From Methanobacteriota archaeon (GTDB lineage: Archaea; Thermoplasmatota; Thermoplasmata; SG8-5; DAIRED01): 64,000 bases of DNA. Where the stretch lies: NCBI GenBank assembly GCA_043799545.1, contig JAZDNO010000006.1:82091-146090 (forward strand). The letters run 5' to 3'. The position numbers and the translations under genes were made by a program. This document shows, one piece after another, positions 39,496-50,674 of this stretch; the stretch's first letter is position 1; each line of letters begins with the position of its first letter. The notes beneath the pieces are model-generated. The model worked only from the letters and a program-made list of their open reading frames with translations, ran no database searches and had not been told where the DNA came from.

Positions 39496-39500
39496 TTAGG

Positions 39501-39521
39501 GCCACTGGAGGGATTTGAACC
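39501..39521 (-). repeat. 21-nt copy of the 3' end (T arm plus acceptor) of the adjacent tRNA-Thr
   Basis: gccactggagggatttgaacc is identical to 39610..39630. No complete cloverleaf could be folded around it. Confidence 0.5.
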
Positions 39522-39608
39522 GACGACCAGTTGGATAGCAATGCTATATGTCCCCTATGGTGGTCTAAGTTCAAATCCCATCAAGCTAGGAGCGATATAA
39601 ATAAATTA

Positions 39609-39682
39609 AGCCACTGGAGGGATTTGAACCCCCGACCTGCTGATTACAAATCAGCCGCTCCACCGAGCTAAGCTACAGTGGC
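39609..39682 (-). tRNA. tRNA-Thr (anticodon UGU)
   Basis: The reverse complement folds as a canonical cloverleaf: acceptor GCCACTG/CAGTGGC, D arm GCTT..GAGC, anticodon stem GCTGA/TCAGC with loop TTTGTAA, T arm GGGGG-TTCAAAT-CCCTC. CCA is not encoded. Confidence 0.8.
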
Positions 39683-39801
39683 GTTTTATTGCTTATGAAT
39701 GGATTTGTATTTCCGACGGACTCCCGAAGCTGAGCCGGAACAAATGCATTGTGGCTCAGCGAGGCACAGACCTTCACCAACCGGAAGGCTGGTCTAGTGC
39801 A

Positions 39802-39823
39802 CCGAGCTAAGCTACAGTGGCAT
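39802..39823 (-). repeat. 22-nt copy of the 5' end (acceptor plus D arm) of the adjacent tRNA-Thr
   Basis: caccgagctaagctacagtggc is identical to 39661..39682. The following sequence (39700..39801) has hairpins but no canonical tRNA body. Confidence 0.5.
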
Positions 39824-39875
39824 TATACCAGAGCGAAATCATAGGAAACGTTTAAAGTTAATCATTGTTTCGCTG

Positions 39876-40865
39876 TTGCTGATGAAAAAATTCGAAAGAT
39901 GCATTAGGAAAGACGAATTCGCCGCAGCCTGGTCCGAGCAAGAAACGGAGACCGAGCGCGCTTTCGTAATCATCCTGAGGACGTCCGGCTGCGCTTGGGC
40001 CGCCAGGGGCGGGTGCCTTATGTGCGGCTACTCGTCCGAATCGCTCCAAGGCGTGTGCCAGGAAGACATCGAGGCGCAGGTGGCGAAGGCGCTGGCGAAG
40101 TACTCCGGCGAGGCCGTTGTCAAGCTCTACACATCCGGGAGCTTCCTCGACGAGAAGGAAATCCCCGACCCAGCGAGGATATGGCAGACGTTGCTCGATG
40201 CTGGCGCGCGCAGGCTTCTGGTGGAATCCCGCCCGGAATTCGTCGAGCCGTCCTTATCCGACATCGAGCCGTTCAAGGGGAAACTCGAAGTTGCCATGGG
40301 ACTGGAAACGGCCAACGACAGTGTGCGCGAACGCTGCGTGAGGAAGGGATTTACCTTTGCGGATTTTTCCGCGGCATCCGAATCGCTGAGGGGCGCTGGC
40401 TCGACCGTGCGCACCTACCTCCTTCTCAAGCCACTTTTCCTGGGGGAGGCCGACGCGATGGCGGACGCTCTCTCCTCGGTCGGCACGGCGTCCGCGCATT
40501 CTGACGTCATTTCACTCAACCCTGTCAACGTCCAGAGGCGGACTCTCGTGGAGCGAATGTGGCGCCGGGCTGAATATAGGCCTCCGTGGCTGTGGTCTAT
40601 TGCGGAGGTGCTCTCGAAGGCGGAAAAGGGGAAGGCGCGTTTGGTCTCATCTCCGTCGGGAGGCGGCACGCAGCGCGGCGCTCACAATTGCGGGAAATGC
40701 GACGCCGTCTTCCTGGATGCCGTTTCAAAATATTCCCTGACCCAGGATGCGGATGTTTTCCGCGGGCTCGGATGCGAGTGCTCGGAGCTATGGCGGGACA
40801 TTCTCGAACTGGAAAGCCGGGCGATGACGACCACAGATTTGGAGCGCACTTCCTGGCGCGGCTAG
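39876..40865 (+). CDS. Radical-SAM-like Fe-S protein with an atypical cysteine motif, possibly the archaeosine-pathway RaSEA family (TIGR01210/COG1244-like)
   Basis: ILRTSGCAWAARGGCLMCGY is a Cx8CxxC-type motif, not CxxxCxxC. Length 329 aa. A TIM-barrel-like region follows. The family assignment is from memory of the COG1244 motif and is not verified. Confidence 0.45.
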   Translation: MLMKKFERCIRKDEFAAAWSEQETETERAFVIILRTSGCAWAARGGCLMCGYSSESLQGVCQEDIEAQVAKALAKYSGEAVVKLYTSGSFLDEKEIPDPARIWQTLLDAGARRLLVESRPEFVEPSLSDIEPFKGKLEVAMGLETANDSVRERCVRKGFTFADFSAASESLRGAGSTVRTYLLLKPLFLGEADAMADALSSVGTASAHSDVISLNPVNVQRRTLVERMWRRAEYRPPWLWSIAEVLSKAEKGKARLVSSPSGGGTQRGAHNCGKCDAVFLDAVSKYSLTQDADVFRGLGCECSELWRDILELESRAMTTTDLERTSWRG

Positions 40866-47200: not shown

Positions 47201-47332
47201 GCACTATGCCAATGACCCGAGGTGGATTAATAACTTTCGCTTCTAATCGCTGCCGCCACAGCGCCATTATGTATGGTGCATCTCAAGGCCGTACTTGAAC
47301 TGCCGACCTTCGACGGAAGGTGTGATTGGCGG

Positions 47333-49543
47333 TCAGCTGTGTTCAAGCCCTATGTTCGAGCATCGAATACGCTCCGATGGTGGCAAATAAATCCGGACTT
47401 GAACCGCAGAATCGCTTCGTTTAGCAATCAAGTTCGATGATTCTGCAAGTTCAAGTCCCCTGCGGCATGAATAGCTGAAAAAATAAAACCTAATGCCGCA
47501 GGCCGGACTTGAACCAGCGACAACTTGATCTTCAGTCAAGCACTCTCCCAGCTGAGTTACTGCGGCACCGTCTCCGGGAAGCCCGCCAGCGTTGCGCTCC
47601 TCTGTGGCGGAGGGGGTTGATTGGACTGCCCCTACATTAAGCTTGCCTTCCCCACCTCTGGTGACCTCGGTGATATTCTCAACAAAGCTCCAGTTCACGG
47701 CGTAGATTTCCGCCCACGTCCCGCGGGTTTCGTTCTCGAACGAGGCGGCCAATACGAACGGCTCCTCCCTCAGCATCGCGAGCGTCTCGTCCGAGACCGG
47801 GGGAAGGCTCATGCCGGCCAGGGAGACCCCGCTGACGCGCATCACGTCGTCCACGAGCACGCAGCCCACGCGGGTCCCGTTCGTTCCGTTTAGTACGTCC
47901 ATGCAGTCGCGCCATTGTGTGGCGTTCCAGATGGCGGCGCCTCCCTCGAACGTCGCCCGGAGTCCCATGGCCTCCAGCTGCGTTCCGAGCCTGTGGTCGG
48001 TTGCGACAGAATATCCAGGGGTGGCGTTCTGGCCAAGCCAATCTAGCGCCGCCAGGTCTTCGTCGCTTATCCGTTCGTCGAAGCCAATCTCAGGCGCCAA
48101 ACGGTAGCTTGCCAGAGCGCTCCCGACAAGCAATGCGACGACCAGGACGGGGACGACGGCGCGCGAACCGACCCTCCAACCCTTTTCATCGATCCAGACG
48201 CCCCTGCCCTCCCACTGTTGCCGTGTGTCCAAGGATGCTGGCCGCAGGTCCGAAATGAATGCCGCATCGCTTCCCCCGACCGTTCCTCCACTCTTGGGCA
48301 GGAAGGGGATGAACCTTCTGGTGGTCTCCATGGAAAAGGCCCTCTCAATGCTTGGCGCAAGCAGGAAAGCCATCCCCATGGCCGCGAAGAGCGACAGTGG
48401 CTCCATCAGGTACTCGAGGTGCCTCTCCGGCAAAAGAATGTCGCTGCCGACTGCGAGCGCAACCGCCATAGAGAGTCCAACCGCCGCGAACCATCCTACG
48501 ATTTCAGAACCCCTTTCAAGCATGGCGGTCCTGCTCAACCCAACAGCGCCGAAGGCCAGGATGGCGAAGACAGGCACAGAATAGACCGCGAGCATGGGAG
48601 TGGCCCTCGATGCTATGGCCGGGCTGTCGGCGATTACCAGCAATGCAATCGTGAAGGTAAGGGCTGAGAACGCGAGTATGAATTTCATTTTTTCATAGCC
48701 TCGCGACACGGGGTCGGAAAGCCAATCCAAGACCGACCTGAACCGTCTCCTGAGAACCAGCAAAGCCGCGGCGAACACCGCATATGCCAGAACGATTGCC
48801 GGCCAGGGGAGCCTGGTTCCTGTTTTCACGAAGGAGAGCACCTCGGTCGCGACGAGCCCCCAGTAAGCGAACGCGAGACATGCGGCGAACGCGATGTATG
48901 CTAGCTGGGCCTTCGAGGGGGCTCGGCGCTGAAGCGCAACCATAGCCGGAAGGGACGCCAGATACAGGTAGGTTGTGAAGTGGTGGGAGCCCACCAGCAG
49001 AGCCGTCGAAGCGATGAGGAGCGCCCAGTCCGCCCTGCCCATCGAGGGCTTGGTCAGCAGGAACATGCATGCCAGGAAGAAGAAATGGCCCATCGTCAAA
49101 GGAGCCGCGTGGCTCGTCTGGTAGACGTGGACGGAATTGACAGCCAAGAGAGCCATGGCGAGAAGCGCGGTTCGGCGCCCCATTCCCGCATTCCTGGCTA
49201 TGAAGTACACGAAGGCCACGGATAGCCCGCCGAACACAGGCGCGACCTTCGTCATCAGCCAGAACGCGTCCGAACCCGTGAGCAGGTGCGGTAATGCCGT
49301 AACCAAATAGAGCACCGGAAAATGCTCGTACGATTGCCCCCATCCGATATATGGCGGGAACAGCGCCCCGTTGTTTATGACCGAAGATGTGAGACCGTAA
49401 TAAATTCCCATATCGCTTCCCCATCCAGAATATATCCAGGCTGGAACTGAGCGAAGGGCGATTGCGAGGGCGCAGAGCCCGATGAAAGCGAGGGCGTGCG
49501 GATTTCGCAGATGCCGCCCGAGAAGCGCCCCCGTTCGAGACAT
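47333..49543 (-). CDS. Polytopic membrane protein with a large sequon-rich extracytoplasmic C-terminal domain, possibly a GT-C-fold glycosyltransferase (ArnT/PMT-like)
   Basis: About 13 TM helices, then a soluble domain with many N-x-S/T sequons. No WWDYG motif, so not a canonical AglB. Start taken at MSRTGALLG; the tracked ORF runs to 49957. The open reading frame continues through tRNA-Phe to 47333. Confidence 0.4.
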   Translation of the reverse strand: MSRTGALLGRHLRNPHALAFIGLCALAIALRSVPAWIYSGWGSDMGIYYGLTSSVINNGALFPPYIGWGQSYEHFPVLYLVTALPHLLTGSDAFWLMTKVAPVFGGLSVAFVYFIARNAGMGRRTALLAMALLAVNSVHVYQTSHAAPLTMGHFFFLACMFLLTKPSMGRADWALLIASTALLVGSHHFTTYLYLASLPAMVALQRRAPSKAQLAYIAFAACLAFAYWGLVATEVLSFVKTGTRLPWPAIVLAYAVFAAALLVLRRRFRSVLDWLSDPVSRGYEKMKFILAFSALTFTIALLVIADSPAIASRATPMLAVYSVPVFAILAFGAVGLSRTAMLERGSEIVGWFAAVGLSMAVALAVGSDILLPERHLEYLMEPLSLFAAMGMAFLLAPSIERAFSMETTRRFIPFLPKSGGTVGGSDAAFISDLRPASLDTRQQWEGRGVWIDEKGWRVGSRAVVPVLVVALLVGSALASYRLAPEIGFDERISDEDLAALDWLGQNATPGYSVATDHRLGTQLEAMGLRATFEGGAAIWNATQWRDCMDVLNGTNGTRVGCVLVDDVMRVSGVSLAGMSLPPVSDETLAMLREEPFVLAASFENETRGTWAEIYAVNWSFVENITEVTRGGEGKLNVGAVQSTPSATEERNAGGLPGDGAAVTQLGECLTEDQVVAGSSPACGIRFYFFSYSCRRGLELAESSNLIAKRSDSAVQVRIYLPPSERIRCSNIGLEHS
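47380..47467 (-). other. tRNA-like remnant with Phe-type acceptor start, T-arm-like copies and an 8-bp hairpin
   Basis: Begins GCCGCAGG like tRNA-Phe and contains GGTTCAAGTCCGG (a T-arm copy), but no foldable cloverleaf. The long hairpin is GCAGAATC...GATTCTGC. More CTTGAAC/GTTCAAG motifs lie at 47320..47360. Confidence 0.35.
47494..47566 (-). tRNA. tRNA-Phe (anticodon GAA)
   Basis: Reverse complement GCCGCAG-TA-ACTC-AGCTGGGA-GAGT-G-CTTGA-CTGAAGA-TCAAG-TTGTC-GCTGG-TTCAAGT-CCGGC-CTGCGGC-A is a perfect cloverleaf with a 7-bp acceptor and a GAA anticodon. Confidence 0.85.
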
Positions 49544-49665
49544 CACGTTCCCCAAGTGCGAAGCCTCCTTCAAATTCGCAACAGGATTTAGTGGTTTTGT
49601 GAGGATATAAGCATATTTGTAAAGCGGTGCCGGGAAGCGCTGAAATGCATATCGTAACCAGCGAC

Positions 49666-49697
49666 ATCTATATATATATAATAGGCTATAATTGGTA
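49666..49697. promoter_or_regulatory. AT-rich divergent promoter region with a (TA)n tract and TATA-like boxes
   Basis: ctatatatatataataggctataattgg lies between the divergent genes starting at about 49543 (minus) and 49727 (plus). It is the most AT-rich intergenic stretch in the window. Confidence 0.35.
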
Positions 49698-49726
49698 AAG
49701 CGCGAGCCTAGCCAAGGAAATAAGTT

Positions 49727-50674
49727 TTGGGGCTTGAGAAGATGTATAGAGGAAGGCGAGGAGAGGGTGGGCGCATAAACCCCTCCCCGAGATGGGGGAG
49801 CGAGGGTGTAGCTTCCACCGTGGGAACGATAATGGCCCTGATGGTTTTCATGGCGATGCTCTCCGTCTTCACTAACCAGTACGTCCCGGTCTGGATGGAG
49901 GACAACGAAGCGAAGCATATGAACGTCGTCGAATCCCAGATGGGAATGCTCAAGCACGGGATTGACACGCAGATACTGGTGGGCCAGCTCGGTGGCGCCA
50001 CGGACATCTCGGTGTACAGTCCCATTACACTGGGTTCGGAGGGCGTTCCGATGTTCGCAGCCCCGACTCAGGGTTATCTGGACGTGCTCCCGGACAGGGG
50101 GCGAAGCACGGTTAATTTCCAGTTCGACCCCAACCCCACGGACCCGACCAGCACACCGGTATCGATTACCTCCTCAAGCACCGGCAGCATAGCCATGGAA
50201 GCCCCGAACCGGTACTACGTTCCGCAGATACTCACATACGAGAACGATGCAATCATCCTCAAGCAGGGCGATGGGGTCATCATGAAGAGCGTTCCCCAGT
50301 TCAGTGTGAGGCAGGAGGGCAACAACTTCCGCGTCTCCTTCACGCAAGTCACTCTCTACGGTGTCAATAAATCGTACGTTGGAAGCGGGACGACCGGGGT
50401 GCACACATCCCTGAGGTACACGAATTCCAGCACGTACAACAACCTCACGACAGATGTCACGATAACGATAACGAGCACGTACGCAAACGCATGGAATGCC
50501 TATTTTAGCGACTACTTGCCCAGAGCGGGTCTCCTTCCGGCGGAATACACGATAGTGCTCAATCCCCCGTTGGCGCCCACACAGCTTGTTCTCACGCTGC
50601 GTATGAACTCTTTCTCCAGCGTCACGGTGAACCAGGCGTATTTCGAAATCCTCATGGGGGAGGTGGGCGAGTAA
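49727..50674 (+). CDS. Type IV pilin-like / FlaF-FlaG-like protein with an N-terminal class-III-signal-like hydrophobic segment
   Basis: A basic N-terminus (RGRRGEGGR) followed by ASTVGTIMALMVFMAMLSVFTNQYVPVW resembles archaeal prepilin/FlaF N-termini. The rest is beta-rich with sequons. First gene of the pilus-like cluster. Confidence 0.45.
   Translation: MGLEKMYRGRRGEGGRINPSPRWGSEGVASTVGTIMALMVFMAMLSVFTNQYVPVWMEDNEAKHMNVVESQMGMLKHGIDTQILVGQLGGATDISVYSPITLGSEGVPMFAAPTQGYLDVLPDRGRSTVNFQFDPNPTDPTSTPVSITSSSTGSIAMEAPNRYYVPQILTYENDAIILKQGDGVIMKSVPQFSVRQEGNNFRVSFTQVTLYGVNKSYVGSGTTGVHTSLRYTNSSTYNNLTTDVTITITSTYANAWNAYFSDYLPRAGLLPAEYTIVLNPPLAPTQLVLTLRMNSFSSVTVNQAYFEILMGEVGE

What the first reader, a model, noticed from the sequence alone, without database searches (positions are those of the whole stretch)
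39499..39825. tRNA-Thr flanked on both sides by perfect copies of its own termini
An intact tRNA-Thr(UGU) gene (39609..39682, minus) is flanked by repeats of its own ends. A 22-nt exact copy of its 5' end lies 120 bp upstream (39802..39823). A 21-nt exact copy of its 3' end lies 87 bp downstream (39501..39521). Neither copy is part of a foldable tRNA, although the intervening sequences contain stable hairpins (for example GCTGAGCC-17 nt-GGCTCAGC). Possible explanations are att-site scars left by integration and excision of mobile elements targeting this tRNA, remnants of isoacceptor genes destroyed by recombination, or unusually processed split tRNA genes.
Basis: seen in the sequence. Interest (0 to 1): 0.5.

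Follow-up and report, generated by a model that had tools for sequence, protein, structure and literature searches.

The report
Structured tRNA-derived modules flanking tRNA-Thr
An archaeal threonine tRNA gene sits between two short, conserved, hairpin-rich DNA units that begin or end with exact copies of the tRNA's own ends; they are neither hidden tRNAs nor plain virus-integration scars, and their copy number and orientation differ between related genomes.

Summary
tRNA-Thr(UGU) lies at 39609-39682 (minus). An exact 21-nt copy of its 3' end lies at 39501-39521. Chance expectation is about 0.

The window comes from a Methanomassiliicoccales-like archaeon. Each copy is the terminus of a discrete unit. 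The 139-nt upstream unit is the 5' copy, two adjacent hairpins, then an A/T-rich box. The ~110-nt downstream unit is a long hairpin in which an antisense copy of the T-loop pairs with the 3' copy.

Related genomes at the same locus carry 0, 1 or at least 3 upstream units and 0 to 2 downstream units, and the tRNA faces either way. One relative has an exact empty site. The hairpins keep pairing through compensatory changes and G-U pairs that work only on the tRNA strand. The units diverge more slowly than four-fold degenerate sites of the adjacent gene. tRNA-Phe in the same window has analogous downstream hairpins.

No intron-containing or split tRNA can be assembled. No Rfam family, integrase or viral attP matches.

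Best reading (about 0.45): tRNA-derived, co-transcribed structured leader and trailer units. Recombination with the tRNA gene keeps their ends identical to it. Their function is unknown.

The parts
39609..39682 (-). Intact tRNA-Thr(UGU) gene
   Evidence: ARAGORN; Rfam RF00005 at 67.5 bits.
39683..39821 (-). Upstream unit, 139 nt: 5' copy, hairpin 1, hairpin 2, then an A/T-rich tail
   Evidence: Conserved in L003/L081/L089, L093 (at least 3 tandem copies) and L094. Variant forms occur in L095, L001 and L087. Covariance model R1 scores it 69.4 bits.
39800..39821 (-). Exact 22-nt copy of tRNA positions 1-21 (the 5' copy)
   Evidence: Alifold predicts that it can fold on itself, CACUG-U-AGC/GCU-CGGUG.
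39764..39800 (-). Hairpin 1: 4 bp, a bulged U, 5 bp, then a variable top. Its first base is the last base of the 5' copy
   Evidence: 6 of 9 pairs change on both sides across 8 sequences, and 93% of cells are paired. One position shows AU, CG, GU and UG.
39721..39763 (-). Hairpin 2 domain: CCUCG, the stem GCUGAGCC/GGCUCAGC with a 16-nt loop containing the invariant GCAUUUGU, then CUUCGGGAG
   Evidence: One compensatory change, GAGCC/GGCUC to GAACC/GGUUC, in L003, L093 and L094.
39703..39712 (-). A/T-rich box AAATACAAAT centred about 25 nt upstream of the tRNA 5' end; candidate TATA box
   Evidence: Read from the sequence. A similar box sits 25-33 nt before each unit start in L093 and L094. Promoter function is inferred, not shown.
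39851..39856 (.). TTTAAA box inside the conserved GATGATTAACTTTAAACGTTT. It lies about 32 nt from the unit start (39821, minus) and about 28 nt from the radical-SAM ATG (39882, plus)
   Evidence: It is the best-conserved non-tRNA stretch between the window and L003. Bidirectional promoter use is inferred.
39496..39608 (-). Downstream unit, about 110 nt: T-rich spacer, long hairpin, 3' copy, then a second T-rich tract
   Evidence: Conserved in L003/L081/L089 and L082. Fold z-score is -3.0.
39569..39579 (-). Anti-T arm GGGAUUUGAAC, complementary to the T-loop and T-stem 3' strand
   Evidence: 11-nt perfect inverted repeats with both the tRNA and the 3' copy (I2 and I3). Similarity to the reverse-complemented tRNA gives p about 0.0015. 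In L082 it changes to GGGAUUUGGAC together with the T-loop.
39501..39521 (-). Exact 21-nt copy of the tRNA 3' end (the 3' copy). Bases 39510-39520 pair with the anti-T arm
47275..47492 (-). Two analogous hairpin units downstream of tRNA-Phe(GAA) (47493-47567). They are built from inverted and direct copies of that tRNA's own T-arm and 3' end
   Evidence: The inverted copy ATGCCGCAGG--GGACTTGAAC was matched by 0 of 2000 shuffles.

Best explanation
The two terminal copies are the ends of two small tRNA-derived units that belong to the tRNA-Thr(UGU) transcription unit of a Methanomassiliicoccales-like archaeon.

Upstream unit. It arose from a partial copy of the tRNA-Thr gene: positions 1-21 followed by an inserted two-hairpin domain. 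I infer that it is transcribed on the tRNA strand from the TTTAAA box at 39851-39856. The transcript starts with the tRNA's own first 21-22 nt. It continues through two adjacent hairpins and ends in an A/T-rich box 25 nt before the tRNA. It therefore acts as a structured leader and promoter cassette. RNase P cleavage at the tRNA 5' end would separate it from the tRNA.

Downstream unit. It arose from an inverted plus a direct partial copy of the tRNA 3' half. In RNA, the antisense T-loop copy is sequestered by the sense 3' copy in a long hairpin that is followed by a second U-rich tract. This gives a structured trailer or back-up 3' end.

Maintenance. Because the units lie in tandem with the gene, recombination between the short repeats keeps their termini identical to the tRNA. 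The likely processes are unequal crossing-over or gene conversion, and possibly a site-specific recombinase. The same recombination adds, deletes and inverts units.

Shown: the anatomy, conservation, covariation, strand asymmetry, slower-than-synonymous divergence, copy-number and orientation polymorphism, and the parallel case at tRNA-Phe.

Inferred: transcription, RNase P release, the recombination mechanism and any cellular role.
For: Exact repeats far beyond chance.

Same architecture in a relative. L003, whose neighbouring aminotransferase is 82% identical in protein, has the same layout.

Copy number and orientation vary at the orthologous locus.
- L083 has no units and the tRNA faces the other way, between the same two genes.
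- L094 equals L082/L083 plus exactly one unit bounded by the 22-nt repeat.
- L093 has at least 3 tandem upstream units.
- L082 has only downstream units.
- L085 has two tandem 140-nt downstream units.

Derivation from the tRNA gene. L093 unit 2 is tRNA positions 1-21, a 58-nt insert, then exact positions 22-42. The 5' copy always matches the lineage's own tRNA: GTAGCTTAGCTCGGTG in one lineage and GTGGCATAGCTCGGTAGCGC in another.

Structure.
- In the hairpin 1/2 domain 93.8% of cells are paired. Seven pairs change on both sides, and 0 of 500 shuffles reach the observed values. Slid controls give 30-45% pairing.
- G-U and U-G pairs in hairpin 1, and a U-G in the CUC(G)/(C)GGG helix of every sequence, pair only on the tRNA strand.
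- In L082 one T-to-C change appears in the tRNA T-loop and in the 3' copy, with the complementary change in the anti-T arm.

Constraint. With the exact copies excluded, the units are 72-86% identical between genomes. Four-fold degenerate sites of the adjacent gene are only 50-56% identical (Fisher p from 3e-3 to 6e-7).

Transcription. In L001, L087 and L095 I saw no TATA-like box between the unit and the tRNA. The tRNA there must be transcribed through the unit (inference).

Generality. tRNA-Phe has units of the same design built from its own T-loop sequence.
Against: There are no expression data. Promoters, transcription start sites and RNase P release are inferred from spacing rules for archaeal promoters.

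Only about 8 distinct upstream and 3 distinct type-I downstream sequences are available, so covariation rests on few independent events.

Slower divergence than synonymous sites could reflect recent lateral spread or paralogy rather than purifying selection. The module similarities do not follow the host-gene similarities. L003's unit is closer to L094's (83%) than the window's unit is (76%).

Compensatory changes in inverted repeats can also arise at the DNA level through template-switch correction of quasi-palindromes.

The window unit's tail shows no significant similarity to the tRNA 3' half (152 of 2000 shuffles score as well). A whole-gene duplication origin is therefore shown only for L093 unit 2.

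No concrete cellular function can be named.
Confidence: 0.45

Rival explanations
1. The units are miniature, non-autonomous recombination cassettes, or remnants of integrative elements. A site-specific recombinase uses the tRNA's 5' 22 nt (crossover near the D-loop) or 3' 21 nt (crossover near the T-loop) as its attachment core. Each insertion duplicates the core, and repeated insertion builds arrays. The hairpins would be recombinase or accessory sites, or cargo that restores a promoter or terminator for the tRNA.
For: - Direct repeats end exactly at the tRNA termini and begin inside the D-arm or T-arm. From general knowledge, this is where tRNA-targeting integrases cross over.
- There is a precise empty site, a one-unit insertion and tandem arrays.
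- The tRNA cassette is inverted in place within both host clades.
- Unit similarities do not follow host similarities.
- The unit supplies a TATA-like box for the displaced tRNA.
- A published precedent exists: a 5' fragment of tRNA-Thr(GGU) beside a recombinase-bearing insertion, with intron gain at position 24/25, in Caldiarchaeum (PMC3293823).
Against: - Only 117 and 87 nt lie between the repeats, with no ORF.
- Neighbouring genes give no integrase or transposase Pfam hit.
- IMG/VR viral contigs contain no exact core and no unit motif.
- GenBank phages and plasmids match only the tRNA part of the locus.
- Covariance model R1 finds no dispersed copies in the 64-kb window and only one extra hit in 14 archaeal loci.
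- G-U pairs point to RNA rather than duplex DNA sites.
- Deletion between 22-nt repeats would give equally precise empty sites without any recombinase.
Confidence: 0.25
2. The units are functionless relics. They would be partial tandem and inverted duplications of the tRNA gene made by replication slippage or template switching. Their repeats would be homogenised by gene conversion, and their hairpins kept perfect by DNA-level quasi-palindrome correction.
For: - At tRNA-Phe the tRNA 3' end and the units run direct, inverted, direct. This is the pattern produced by template-switch rearrangements.
- Presence and absence vary widely among close relatives.
- Neither unit matches a known RNA family.
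Against: - Divergence is significantly lower than at four-fold degenerate sites.
- Strand-specific G-U pairs occur.
- Unpaired motifs are invariant: GCAUUUGU in the hairpin 2 loop and CUUCGGGAG.
- The A/T boxes keep a consistent spacing from each unit start.
- The domain persists in three host clades whose synonymous sites are near saturation.
Confidence: 0.2
3. The flanks are pieces of a split, permuted or multi-intron tRNA, such as another tRNA-Thr isoacceptor that shares the 5' and 3' ends. The archaeal splicing endonuclease would assemble them at bulge-helix-bulge (BHB) motifs.
For: The upstream unit has only the 5' acceptor strand and the downstream unit only the 3' acceptor strand, so the two could pair over 7 bp. 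Tri-split tRNAs that share end fragments are known in Caldivirga (from general knowledge).
Against: - ARAGORN finds no tRNA after any of 8643 (upstream) or 5047 (downstream) single deletions. Among 11625 upstream-to-downstream joins it reports only 15 aberrant models, 85-98 nt long, labelled Ala(agc) or undetermined.
- A hand check finds no 3-nt bulge / 4-bp helix / 3-nt bulge arrangement at positions 21/22 or 25/26.
- The T-stem of the 3' copy is disrupted (GUCGG against CCCUC) in all three species.
- The base after the 3' copy differs between species (C, U, A).
- The two units occur separately. L082 has only the downstream unit, and L001, L087 and L095 have only the upstream unit (L093 and L094 also carry upstream units).
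Confidence: 0.03

Closest known systems
attL/attR duplications left by integrative elements at archaeal tRNA genes (SSV1- and pNOB8-type integrases; Caldiarchaeum tRNA-Thr(GGU) 5' fragment, PMC3293823)
   Same: Direct repeats identical to one end of the tRNA and bounded at the tRNA terminus. Filled and empty sites exist among relatives. A 5' fragment lies upstream of an intact tRNA-Thr gene. Extra sequence is inserted in the D-arm region of a tRNA copy.
   Different: The DNA between the repeats is only 87-117 nt. It has no recombinase or other ORF. It is conserved across species and folds into covarying hairpins. Units form tandem arrays and occur on both sides of the gene. No attP-bearing element was found.
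Non-canonical tRNA gene fragments in prokaryotic genomes (van der Gulik et al. 2023, PMC9897764)
   Same: Partial tRNA sequences lie next to a canonical gene and do not fold into a tRNA.
   Different: [quoted passage not shown] Here the fragments are the termini of conserved structured units and evolve in step with the gene.
Split and tri-split tRNA genes (Nanoarchaeum equitans, Caldivirga maquilingensis) and multi-intron tRNAs with BHB motifs (general knowledge)
   Same: Separate DNA segments carry only the 5' or only the 3' part of a tRNA.
   Different: An intact gene lies between the segments. I found no BHB motif and no complementary leader or trailer, and no cloverleaf can be assembled.
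Tandemly repeated promoter units upstream of haloarchaeal rRNA operons (from memory, not checked here)
   Same: Repeated units of about 130 nt, each with a promoter-like box, stacked upstream of a stable-RNA gene, with copy number varying between strains.
   Different: Here each unit begins with a copy of the gene's own first 22 nt and contains a conserved two-hairpin domain. Promoter activity is untested.
Small RNAs released from a precursor by tRNA-processing enzymes (MALAT1-mascRNA, plant tRNA-snoRNA, Nanoarchaeum tRNA-C/D sRNA dicistrons; general knowledge)
   Same: A structured non-tRNA RNA abuts a tRNA, so RNase P cleavage would define its 3' end.
   Different: The upstream RNA is itself derived from the adjacent tRNA. 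It has no C/D or H/ACA boxes and no Rfam match.

Membership tests
Integrative-element att duplication at a tRNA gene | Direct repeat identical to one end of the tRNA gene | tested here: met
   22 nt and 21 nt, both exact.
Integrative-element att duplication at a tRNA gene | Mobile-element DNA (integrase or other genes) between the repeats | tested here: not met
   117 and 87 nt with no ORF. Neighbouring genes are an aminotransferase, radical SAM, dCTP deaminase-like, Trm5/TYW2 and NifU.
Integrative-element att duplication at a tRNA gene | Empty site in related genomes | tested here: met
   L083 has the same flanking genes and no units. L094 equals L082/L083 plus one unit.
Integrative-element att duplication at a tRNA gene | An element carrying the matching attP | tested here: not met
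   No exact core or unit motif in IMG/VR. Only the tRNA part of the locus matches phage and plasmid records. Absence from these collections is not proof of absence.
Split / intron-containing archaeal tRNA | Pieces join into a canonical cloverleaf | tested here: not met
   ARAGORN on all single deletions and all upstream-to-downstream joins; ARAGORN intron mode.
Split / intron-containing archaeal tRNA | Bulge-helix-bulge (BHB) motif at each junction | tested here: not met
   Hand inspection of positions 21/22 (window, L093 unit 2) and 25/26 (L001). The 4-nt stretches 2 nt upstream of the two candidate splice sites are not complementary. No dedicated BHB software was available.
Split / intron-containing archaeal tRNA | The genome otherwise lacks the tRNA that the pieces would encode | not testable with these tools
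   Only 64 kb of the genome is available.
Neutral tRNA pseudogene | Divergence at about the neutral rate with no structural constraint | tested here: not met
   72-86% identity against 50-56% at four-fold sites. Covariation.
Neutral tRNA pseudogene | Homology to the parent tRNA along the whole unit | tested here: inconclusive
   L093 unit 2 matches positions 1-42 around an insert. The window unit's tail is not significantly similar to the tRNA.
Dispersed MITE / IS200-IS605-derived palindromic element | Multiple copies at unrelated sites | tested here: not met
   Model R1 finds only the tRNA-Thr-linked copies plus one weak extra hit in L001. T-loop-like hairpin arms occur only at the two tRNA loci. 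Only 64 kb plus short loci were searched.
Any curated RNA family (Rfam 15) | Match at or near the gathering score | tested here: not met
   Apart from the tRNA genes themselves, every listed match in these searches is below its family's gathering score.
Bacterial-type intrinsic terminator | Short GC-rich hairpin followed directly by a T-run | tested here: not met
   No site at either locus. The hairpins have large loops, and at tRNA-Thr the T-tract starts 15 nt after the stem.

The most novel reading that the evidence does not exclude
The units could be a previously undescribed class of expressed 'tRNA satellite' RNAs in Methanomassiliicoccales. They would be cassette-like genes that use the ends of a resident tRNA gene as their recombination sites, so they can be gained, stacked, lost and inverted. 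Their transcripts would carry a genuine tRNA 5' or 3' fragment fused to a conserved structured domain. Possible roles are genome-encoded tRNA-fragment mimics or decoys for tRNA-binding enzymes, or regulators of the maturation of the adjacent tRNA.
Probability: 0.15. Interest if true: 0.8.

Novelty: new variant of a known kind. Interest (0 to 1): 0.55.

Why it matters
Partial tRNA copies beside tRNA genes are usually dismissed as integration scars. Here the copies are the termini of short units that are conserved, structurally constrained, probably transcribed, and variable in number and orientation. They occur at two or more tRNA genes of one genome.

If the units are expressed, they would be an archaeal example of new structured RNAs born from a tRNA gene and kept in step with it. 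They would also give a natural system for asking how leaders and trailers shape archaeal tRNA maturation.

If they are recombination cassettes, they would show that tRNA ends can serve as sites for gene-free mini-elements.

Either way, annotators should expect tRNA-end repeats of this kind in Methanomassiliicoccales and should not read them as proviruses or split tRNAs.

Tried and rejected
- Intron-containing, split or permuted tRNA. ARAGORN intron modes and exhaustive deletion and join trials failed. A hand check found no BHB motif. Rejected.
- C/D box guide for 2'-O-methylation of C56. A C-box-like UGAUGG precedes the anti-T arm in the window, but it is absent in L003 and L082. There is no C' or D box. 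Rejected.
- H/ACA guide, K-turn, hammerhead or other ribozymes. I recognised no ACA box, pocket or catalytic-core motif. Rfam is silent. Rejected.
- Integron attC. The hairpin arms resemble RYYYAAC/GTTRRRY only because they are T-loop sequence. No integrase was found. Not supported.
- The window unit's tail or hairpin 2 as a degenerate tRNA 3' half or anticodon arm. Not significant.
- The minimum-free-energy fold of the upstream unit pairs the 5' copy with GCUGAGCC. That pairing is broken in L003, whereas hairpin 2 is compensated. Rejected in favour of the comparative structure.
- Bacterial-type promoter and terminator scans found nothing. They are not designed for archaea.
- Searches of viral contigs, phage records and plasmid records found nothing for the cores or units.
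I could not retrieve the tRNA-Phe locus or other tRNA loci from relatives.
Full report
**1. The observation.**
ARAGORN and Rfam find two tRNA genes in the window, both on the minus strand. They are tRNA-Thr(UGU) at 39609-39682 and tRNA-Phe(GAA) at 47493-47567.

The first 22 nt of tRNA-Thr (GCCACTGTAGCTTAGCTCGGTG) recur exactly at 39800-39821. The last 21 nt before the discriminator base (GGTTCAAATCCCTCCAGTGGC) recur exactly at 39501-39521. Shuffled sequence gives 0.00 and 0.01 matches respectively.

Weaker similarity runs on past both copies, including into the A/T-rich flanks.

Neither flank is recognised as a tRNA. ARAGORN with intron options finds nothing credible, and Rfam finds nothing even at E <= 10.

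**2. Organism and relatives.**
The neighbouring genes encode a class IV aminotransferase, a radical-SAM protein, a dCTP-deaminase-like protein, Trm5/TYW2 and NifU. The closest aminotransferase genes come from Methanomassiliicoccales/Thermoplasmatota MAGs. The window's own protein is on record from an NCBI MAG contig of 222,880 bp.

I used this gene as an anchor to collect the orthologous tRNA-Thr locus from about ten distinct relatives. By aminotransferase identity they fall into three host clades:
- Clade A: window, L082, L093, L094.
- Clade B: L003 (same sequence type as L081 and L089), L083, L085.
- Clade C: L095, L001, L087.

**3. The copies are the ends of discrete units.**
L003 has the same three-part layout as the window: 5' copy, tRNA, 3' copy. 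Its flanks align to the window's throughout.

The upstream unit (39683-39821, 139 nt) has five parts:
- The 5' copy.
- Hairpin 1: 4 bp, a bulged U, 5 bp and a variable top. Its first base is the last base of the copy.
- A second domain directly adjacent: CCUCG, a stem, then CUUCGG.
- A short tail.
- An A/T-rich box (AAATACAAAT) centred about 25 nt before the tRNA.

The downstream unit (39496-39608) has four parts:
- A T-rich spacer.
- A long hairpin. In it GGGAUUUGAAC, the complement of the T-loop and T-stem 3' strand, pairs with GUUCAAAUCCC of the 3' copy. An inner helix GACCA/UGGUC extends the stem.
- A free tail, UCCAGUGGC.
- A second T-rich tract.

**4. Presence, number and orientation vary.**
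- L083 has the same two flanking genes (the radical-SAM proteins are 75% identical). It has no units at all, and the tRNA is on the other strand.
- L094 has the promoter region of L082 and L083, followed by exactly one upstream unit bounded by the 22-nt repeat, then the tRNA.
- L093 is among the closest relatives (91% protein identity). It has at least three tandem upstream units, each starting with the exact 22-mer.
- L082 has no upstream unit. It has one clear downstream unit and what looks like a degenerate second one.
- L085 has two tandem 140-nt downstream units of a different, two-hairpin type. Each starts with UGGGAUUUGAAC. They end in CCCUCCAGUGGC and CCCUCCAGCGGG.
- L001, L087 and L095 carry a variant upstream unit. 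Its 3' end (CACAGUGGCC) pairs with its 5' end to close a 9-bp stem.
- Both tRNA orientations occur within clades A and B.

The locus is therefore structurally very dynamic.

**5. Origin from the tRNA gene.**
L093 unit 2 reads as follows: tRNA positions 1-21, a 58-nt insert (hairpin 1, hairpin 2, UCGG), then GAGCGGCTGATTTGTAATCAG. That last stretch is tRNA positions 22-42 exactly. After it the unit diverges into a TATA-like box. So the upstream units descend from copies of the tRNA-Thr(UGU) gene that carry an insertion at position 21/22. In L001 and L087 the insertion is at 25/26.

The 5' copy always matches the tRNA of its own lineage, which differs between lineages at positions 9, 12 and 21. 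The three bases after the insert also follow the lineage's D-stem: GAG in one lineage and GCG in another. That is concerted evolution with the gene.

For the window's own unit, the tail is not significantly similar to the tRNA 3' half. I do not claim whole-gene homology for it.

The downstream arms are significant inverted and direct copies of the tRNA 3' half. For tRNA-Thr, p is about 0.0015. For tRNA-Phe, 0 to 1 of 2000 shuffles score as well.

**6. Constraint and strand.**
I aligned eight insert domains. With my proposed structure, 93.8% of cells form standard pairs and seven pairs change on both sides. None of 500 column shuffles reaches the observed values. Sliding the partners drops pairing to 30-45%.

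One hairpin 1 position shows AU, CG, GU and UG. The CUC(G)/(C)GGG helix has a U-G in every sequence. These pairs work only in RNA, or single-stranded DNA, of the tRNA strand.

In hairpin 2, GAGCC/GGCUC becomes GAACC/GGUUC in three genomes. In L082 a T-to-C change in the tRNA T-loop is mirrored in the 3' copy and compensated in the anti-T arm.

Excluding the exact copies, the units are 72-77% (upstream) and 80-86% (downstream) identical between genomes. Four-fold degenerate sites of the adjacent gene are only 50-56% identical in those genomes, against a random expectation of 32%. Fisher p ranges from 3e-3 to 6e-7.

Two caveats apply:
- The unit similarities do not follow host similarities. Paralogy within arrays or lateral spread could therefore contribute to the low divergence.
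- DNA-level correction of inverted repeats can mimic compensation.

**7. Transcription (inferred).**
In the window, a TTTAAA box (39851-39856) lies inside the best-conserved non-tRNA stretch. It sits about 32 nt from the unit start and about 28 nt from the divergent radical-SAM ATG. From general knowledge, archaeal TATA boxes lie roughly 26 nt upstream of the transcription start. This spacing fits a shared bidirectional promoter.

A/T-rich boxes lie 25-33 nt before each unit start and before the tRNA in the window, L093 and L094. In L001, L087 and L095 no such box lies between unit and tRNA, so the tRNA must be transcribed through the unit. RNase P would then separate the two. None of this has been measured.

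**8. A second case in the same window.**
Two units of about 105-110 nt follow tRNA-Phe. Each has an anti-T arm (GGACUUGAAC or GGGCUUGAAC) paired to a sense T-arm copy.

In the first unit the antisense arm is a copy of the whole 3' end (AUGCCGCAGG-GGACUUGAAC). It could pair either back onto the tRNA or forward onto the sense copy.

The arms carry tRNA-Phe's T-loop sequence (AAGUCC), not tRNA-Thr's (AAAUCC). The design is therefore generated from, or tracks, each cognate tRNA. T-loop-like arms occur nowhere else in the 64 kb.

**9. What it is not.**
- No cloverleaf arises from any single deletion within either unit. Joins between the two units give only 15 aberrant ARAGORN models out of 11625.
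- The insert borders lack a BHB motif.
- No Rfam family matches.
- No integrase or transposase lies nearby.
- IMG/VR viral contigs carry neither the cores nor unit motifs, and phage and plasmid records match only the tRNA part of the locus.
- Covariance model R1 finds only the tRNA-Thr-linked units, plus one extra hairpin-1-like domain 470 nt downstream of the tRNA in L001.
- Bacterial-type terminator scans are negative.

**10. Interpretation.**
The best-supported reading is that these are tRNA-derived leader and trailer units. They are kept in tandem with the gene, transcribed on its strand and constrained in structure. Recombination with the gene homogenises their ends, and the same recombination changes their number and orientation. 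I give this about 0.45.

A cassette or mini-element model driven by a site-specific recombinase explains the precise repeats, empty sites, arrays and inversions. It also has a published precedent at an archaeal tRNA-Thr gene (PMC3293823). It lacks any recombinase or donor element. I give it about 0.25.

Neutral relics (about 0.2) conflict with the constraint data. Split or intron-containing tRNA (about 0.03) is essentially excluded.

What the units do in the cell remains unknown. My working proposal is a promoter-bearing structured leader and a hairpin trailer that sequesters an antisense T-arm segment and provides a second 3' end. That proposal is an inference from anatomy alone.

**11. Novelty.**
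tRNA-end repeats beside tRNA genes are well known as integration scars or gene fragments (PMC3293823, PMC9897764). I found no description of gene-free, conserved, covarying units on both sides of a tRNA, in arrays, and with a cognate-matched counterpart at a second tRNA. My literature searches were limited.

I rate this a new variant of a known kind, of moderate interest (0.55).

Noticed in passing
window 47275-47567: tRNA-Phe(GAA) is followed by two hairpin units of about 105-110 nt. They are made of inverted plus direct copies of its own T-arm and 3' end. The first antisense arm, ATGCCGCAGG-GGACTTGAAC, can pair with the tRNA 3' end or with the downstream sense copy.
   Followed up: partly
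window 47333-49957 (minus): An 874-aa ORF with no Pfam hit stays open through tRNA-Phe and the first hairpin unit. The 3' part is probably a spurious extension, and the true gene end is unclear.
   Followed up: no
window 39851-39884; L083 2380-2620: The tRNA-Thr cassette lies between the same two genes (aminotransferase and radical SAM) in opposite orientations in different relatives. In the window a single TTTAAA box sits midway between the unit start and the divergent radical-SAM ATG, which suggests a bidirectional promoter.
   Followed up: partly
L082 9455-9640: This relative's tRNA-Thr has the T-loop UCCAAAU, with C where the near-universal U55 is expected. The same change is present in the 3' copy and is compensated in the anti-T arm.
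   Followed up: partly
L001 5200-5800; L095 1700-2117; L084 1400-1560; L087 2680-2900: Several copies of a GC-rich hairpin, CCCCGCC-CTCACAG-GCGGGG(CATG), and relatives of it lie in the long non-coding stretch downstream of tRNA-Thr. This looks like another small repeat family.
   Followed up: no
L001 5630-5790: An extra hairpin-1-like domain (model R1, 29.8 bits) lies 470 nt downstream of the tRNA. A perfect 10-bp hairpin, CACGTCGAAC-ACG-TTCGACGTG, precedes it, and a T-loop-like GGTTCGAACCCCGG follows it. It is not next to any tRNA 5' copy.
   Followed up: partly
L084 1270-1320: A relative without the full upstream unit has an 11-bp leader hairpin (TTGATGTTCGC/GCGAACATCAA) that ends at tRNA position -1. 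Its loop carries GCCACTGT, a copy of the acceptor 5' strand.
   Followed up: no
L085 2384-2663; L093 950-1087: A second type of downstream unit has two hairpins (GGACUARC...GYUAGUCC and GGSSAR...YUYGCC). In L085 it is flanked by the anti-T sequence and a 12-nt 3' acceptor copy, and it is tandemly duplicated. In L093 the tRNA-derived ends are degenerate. It is absent from the window.
   Followed up: partly
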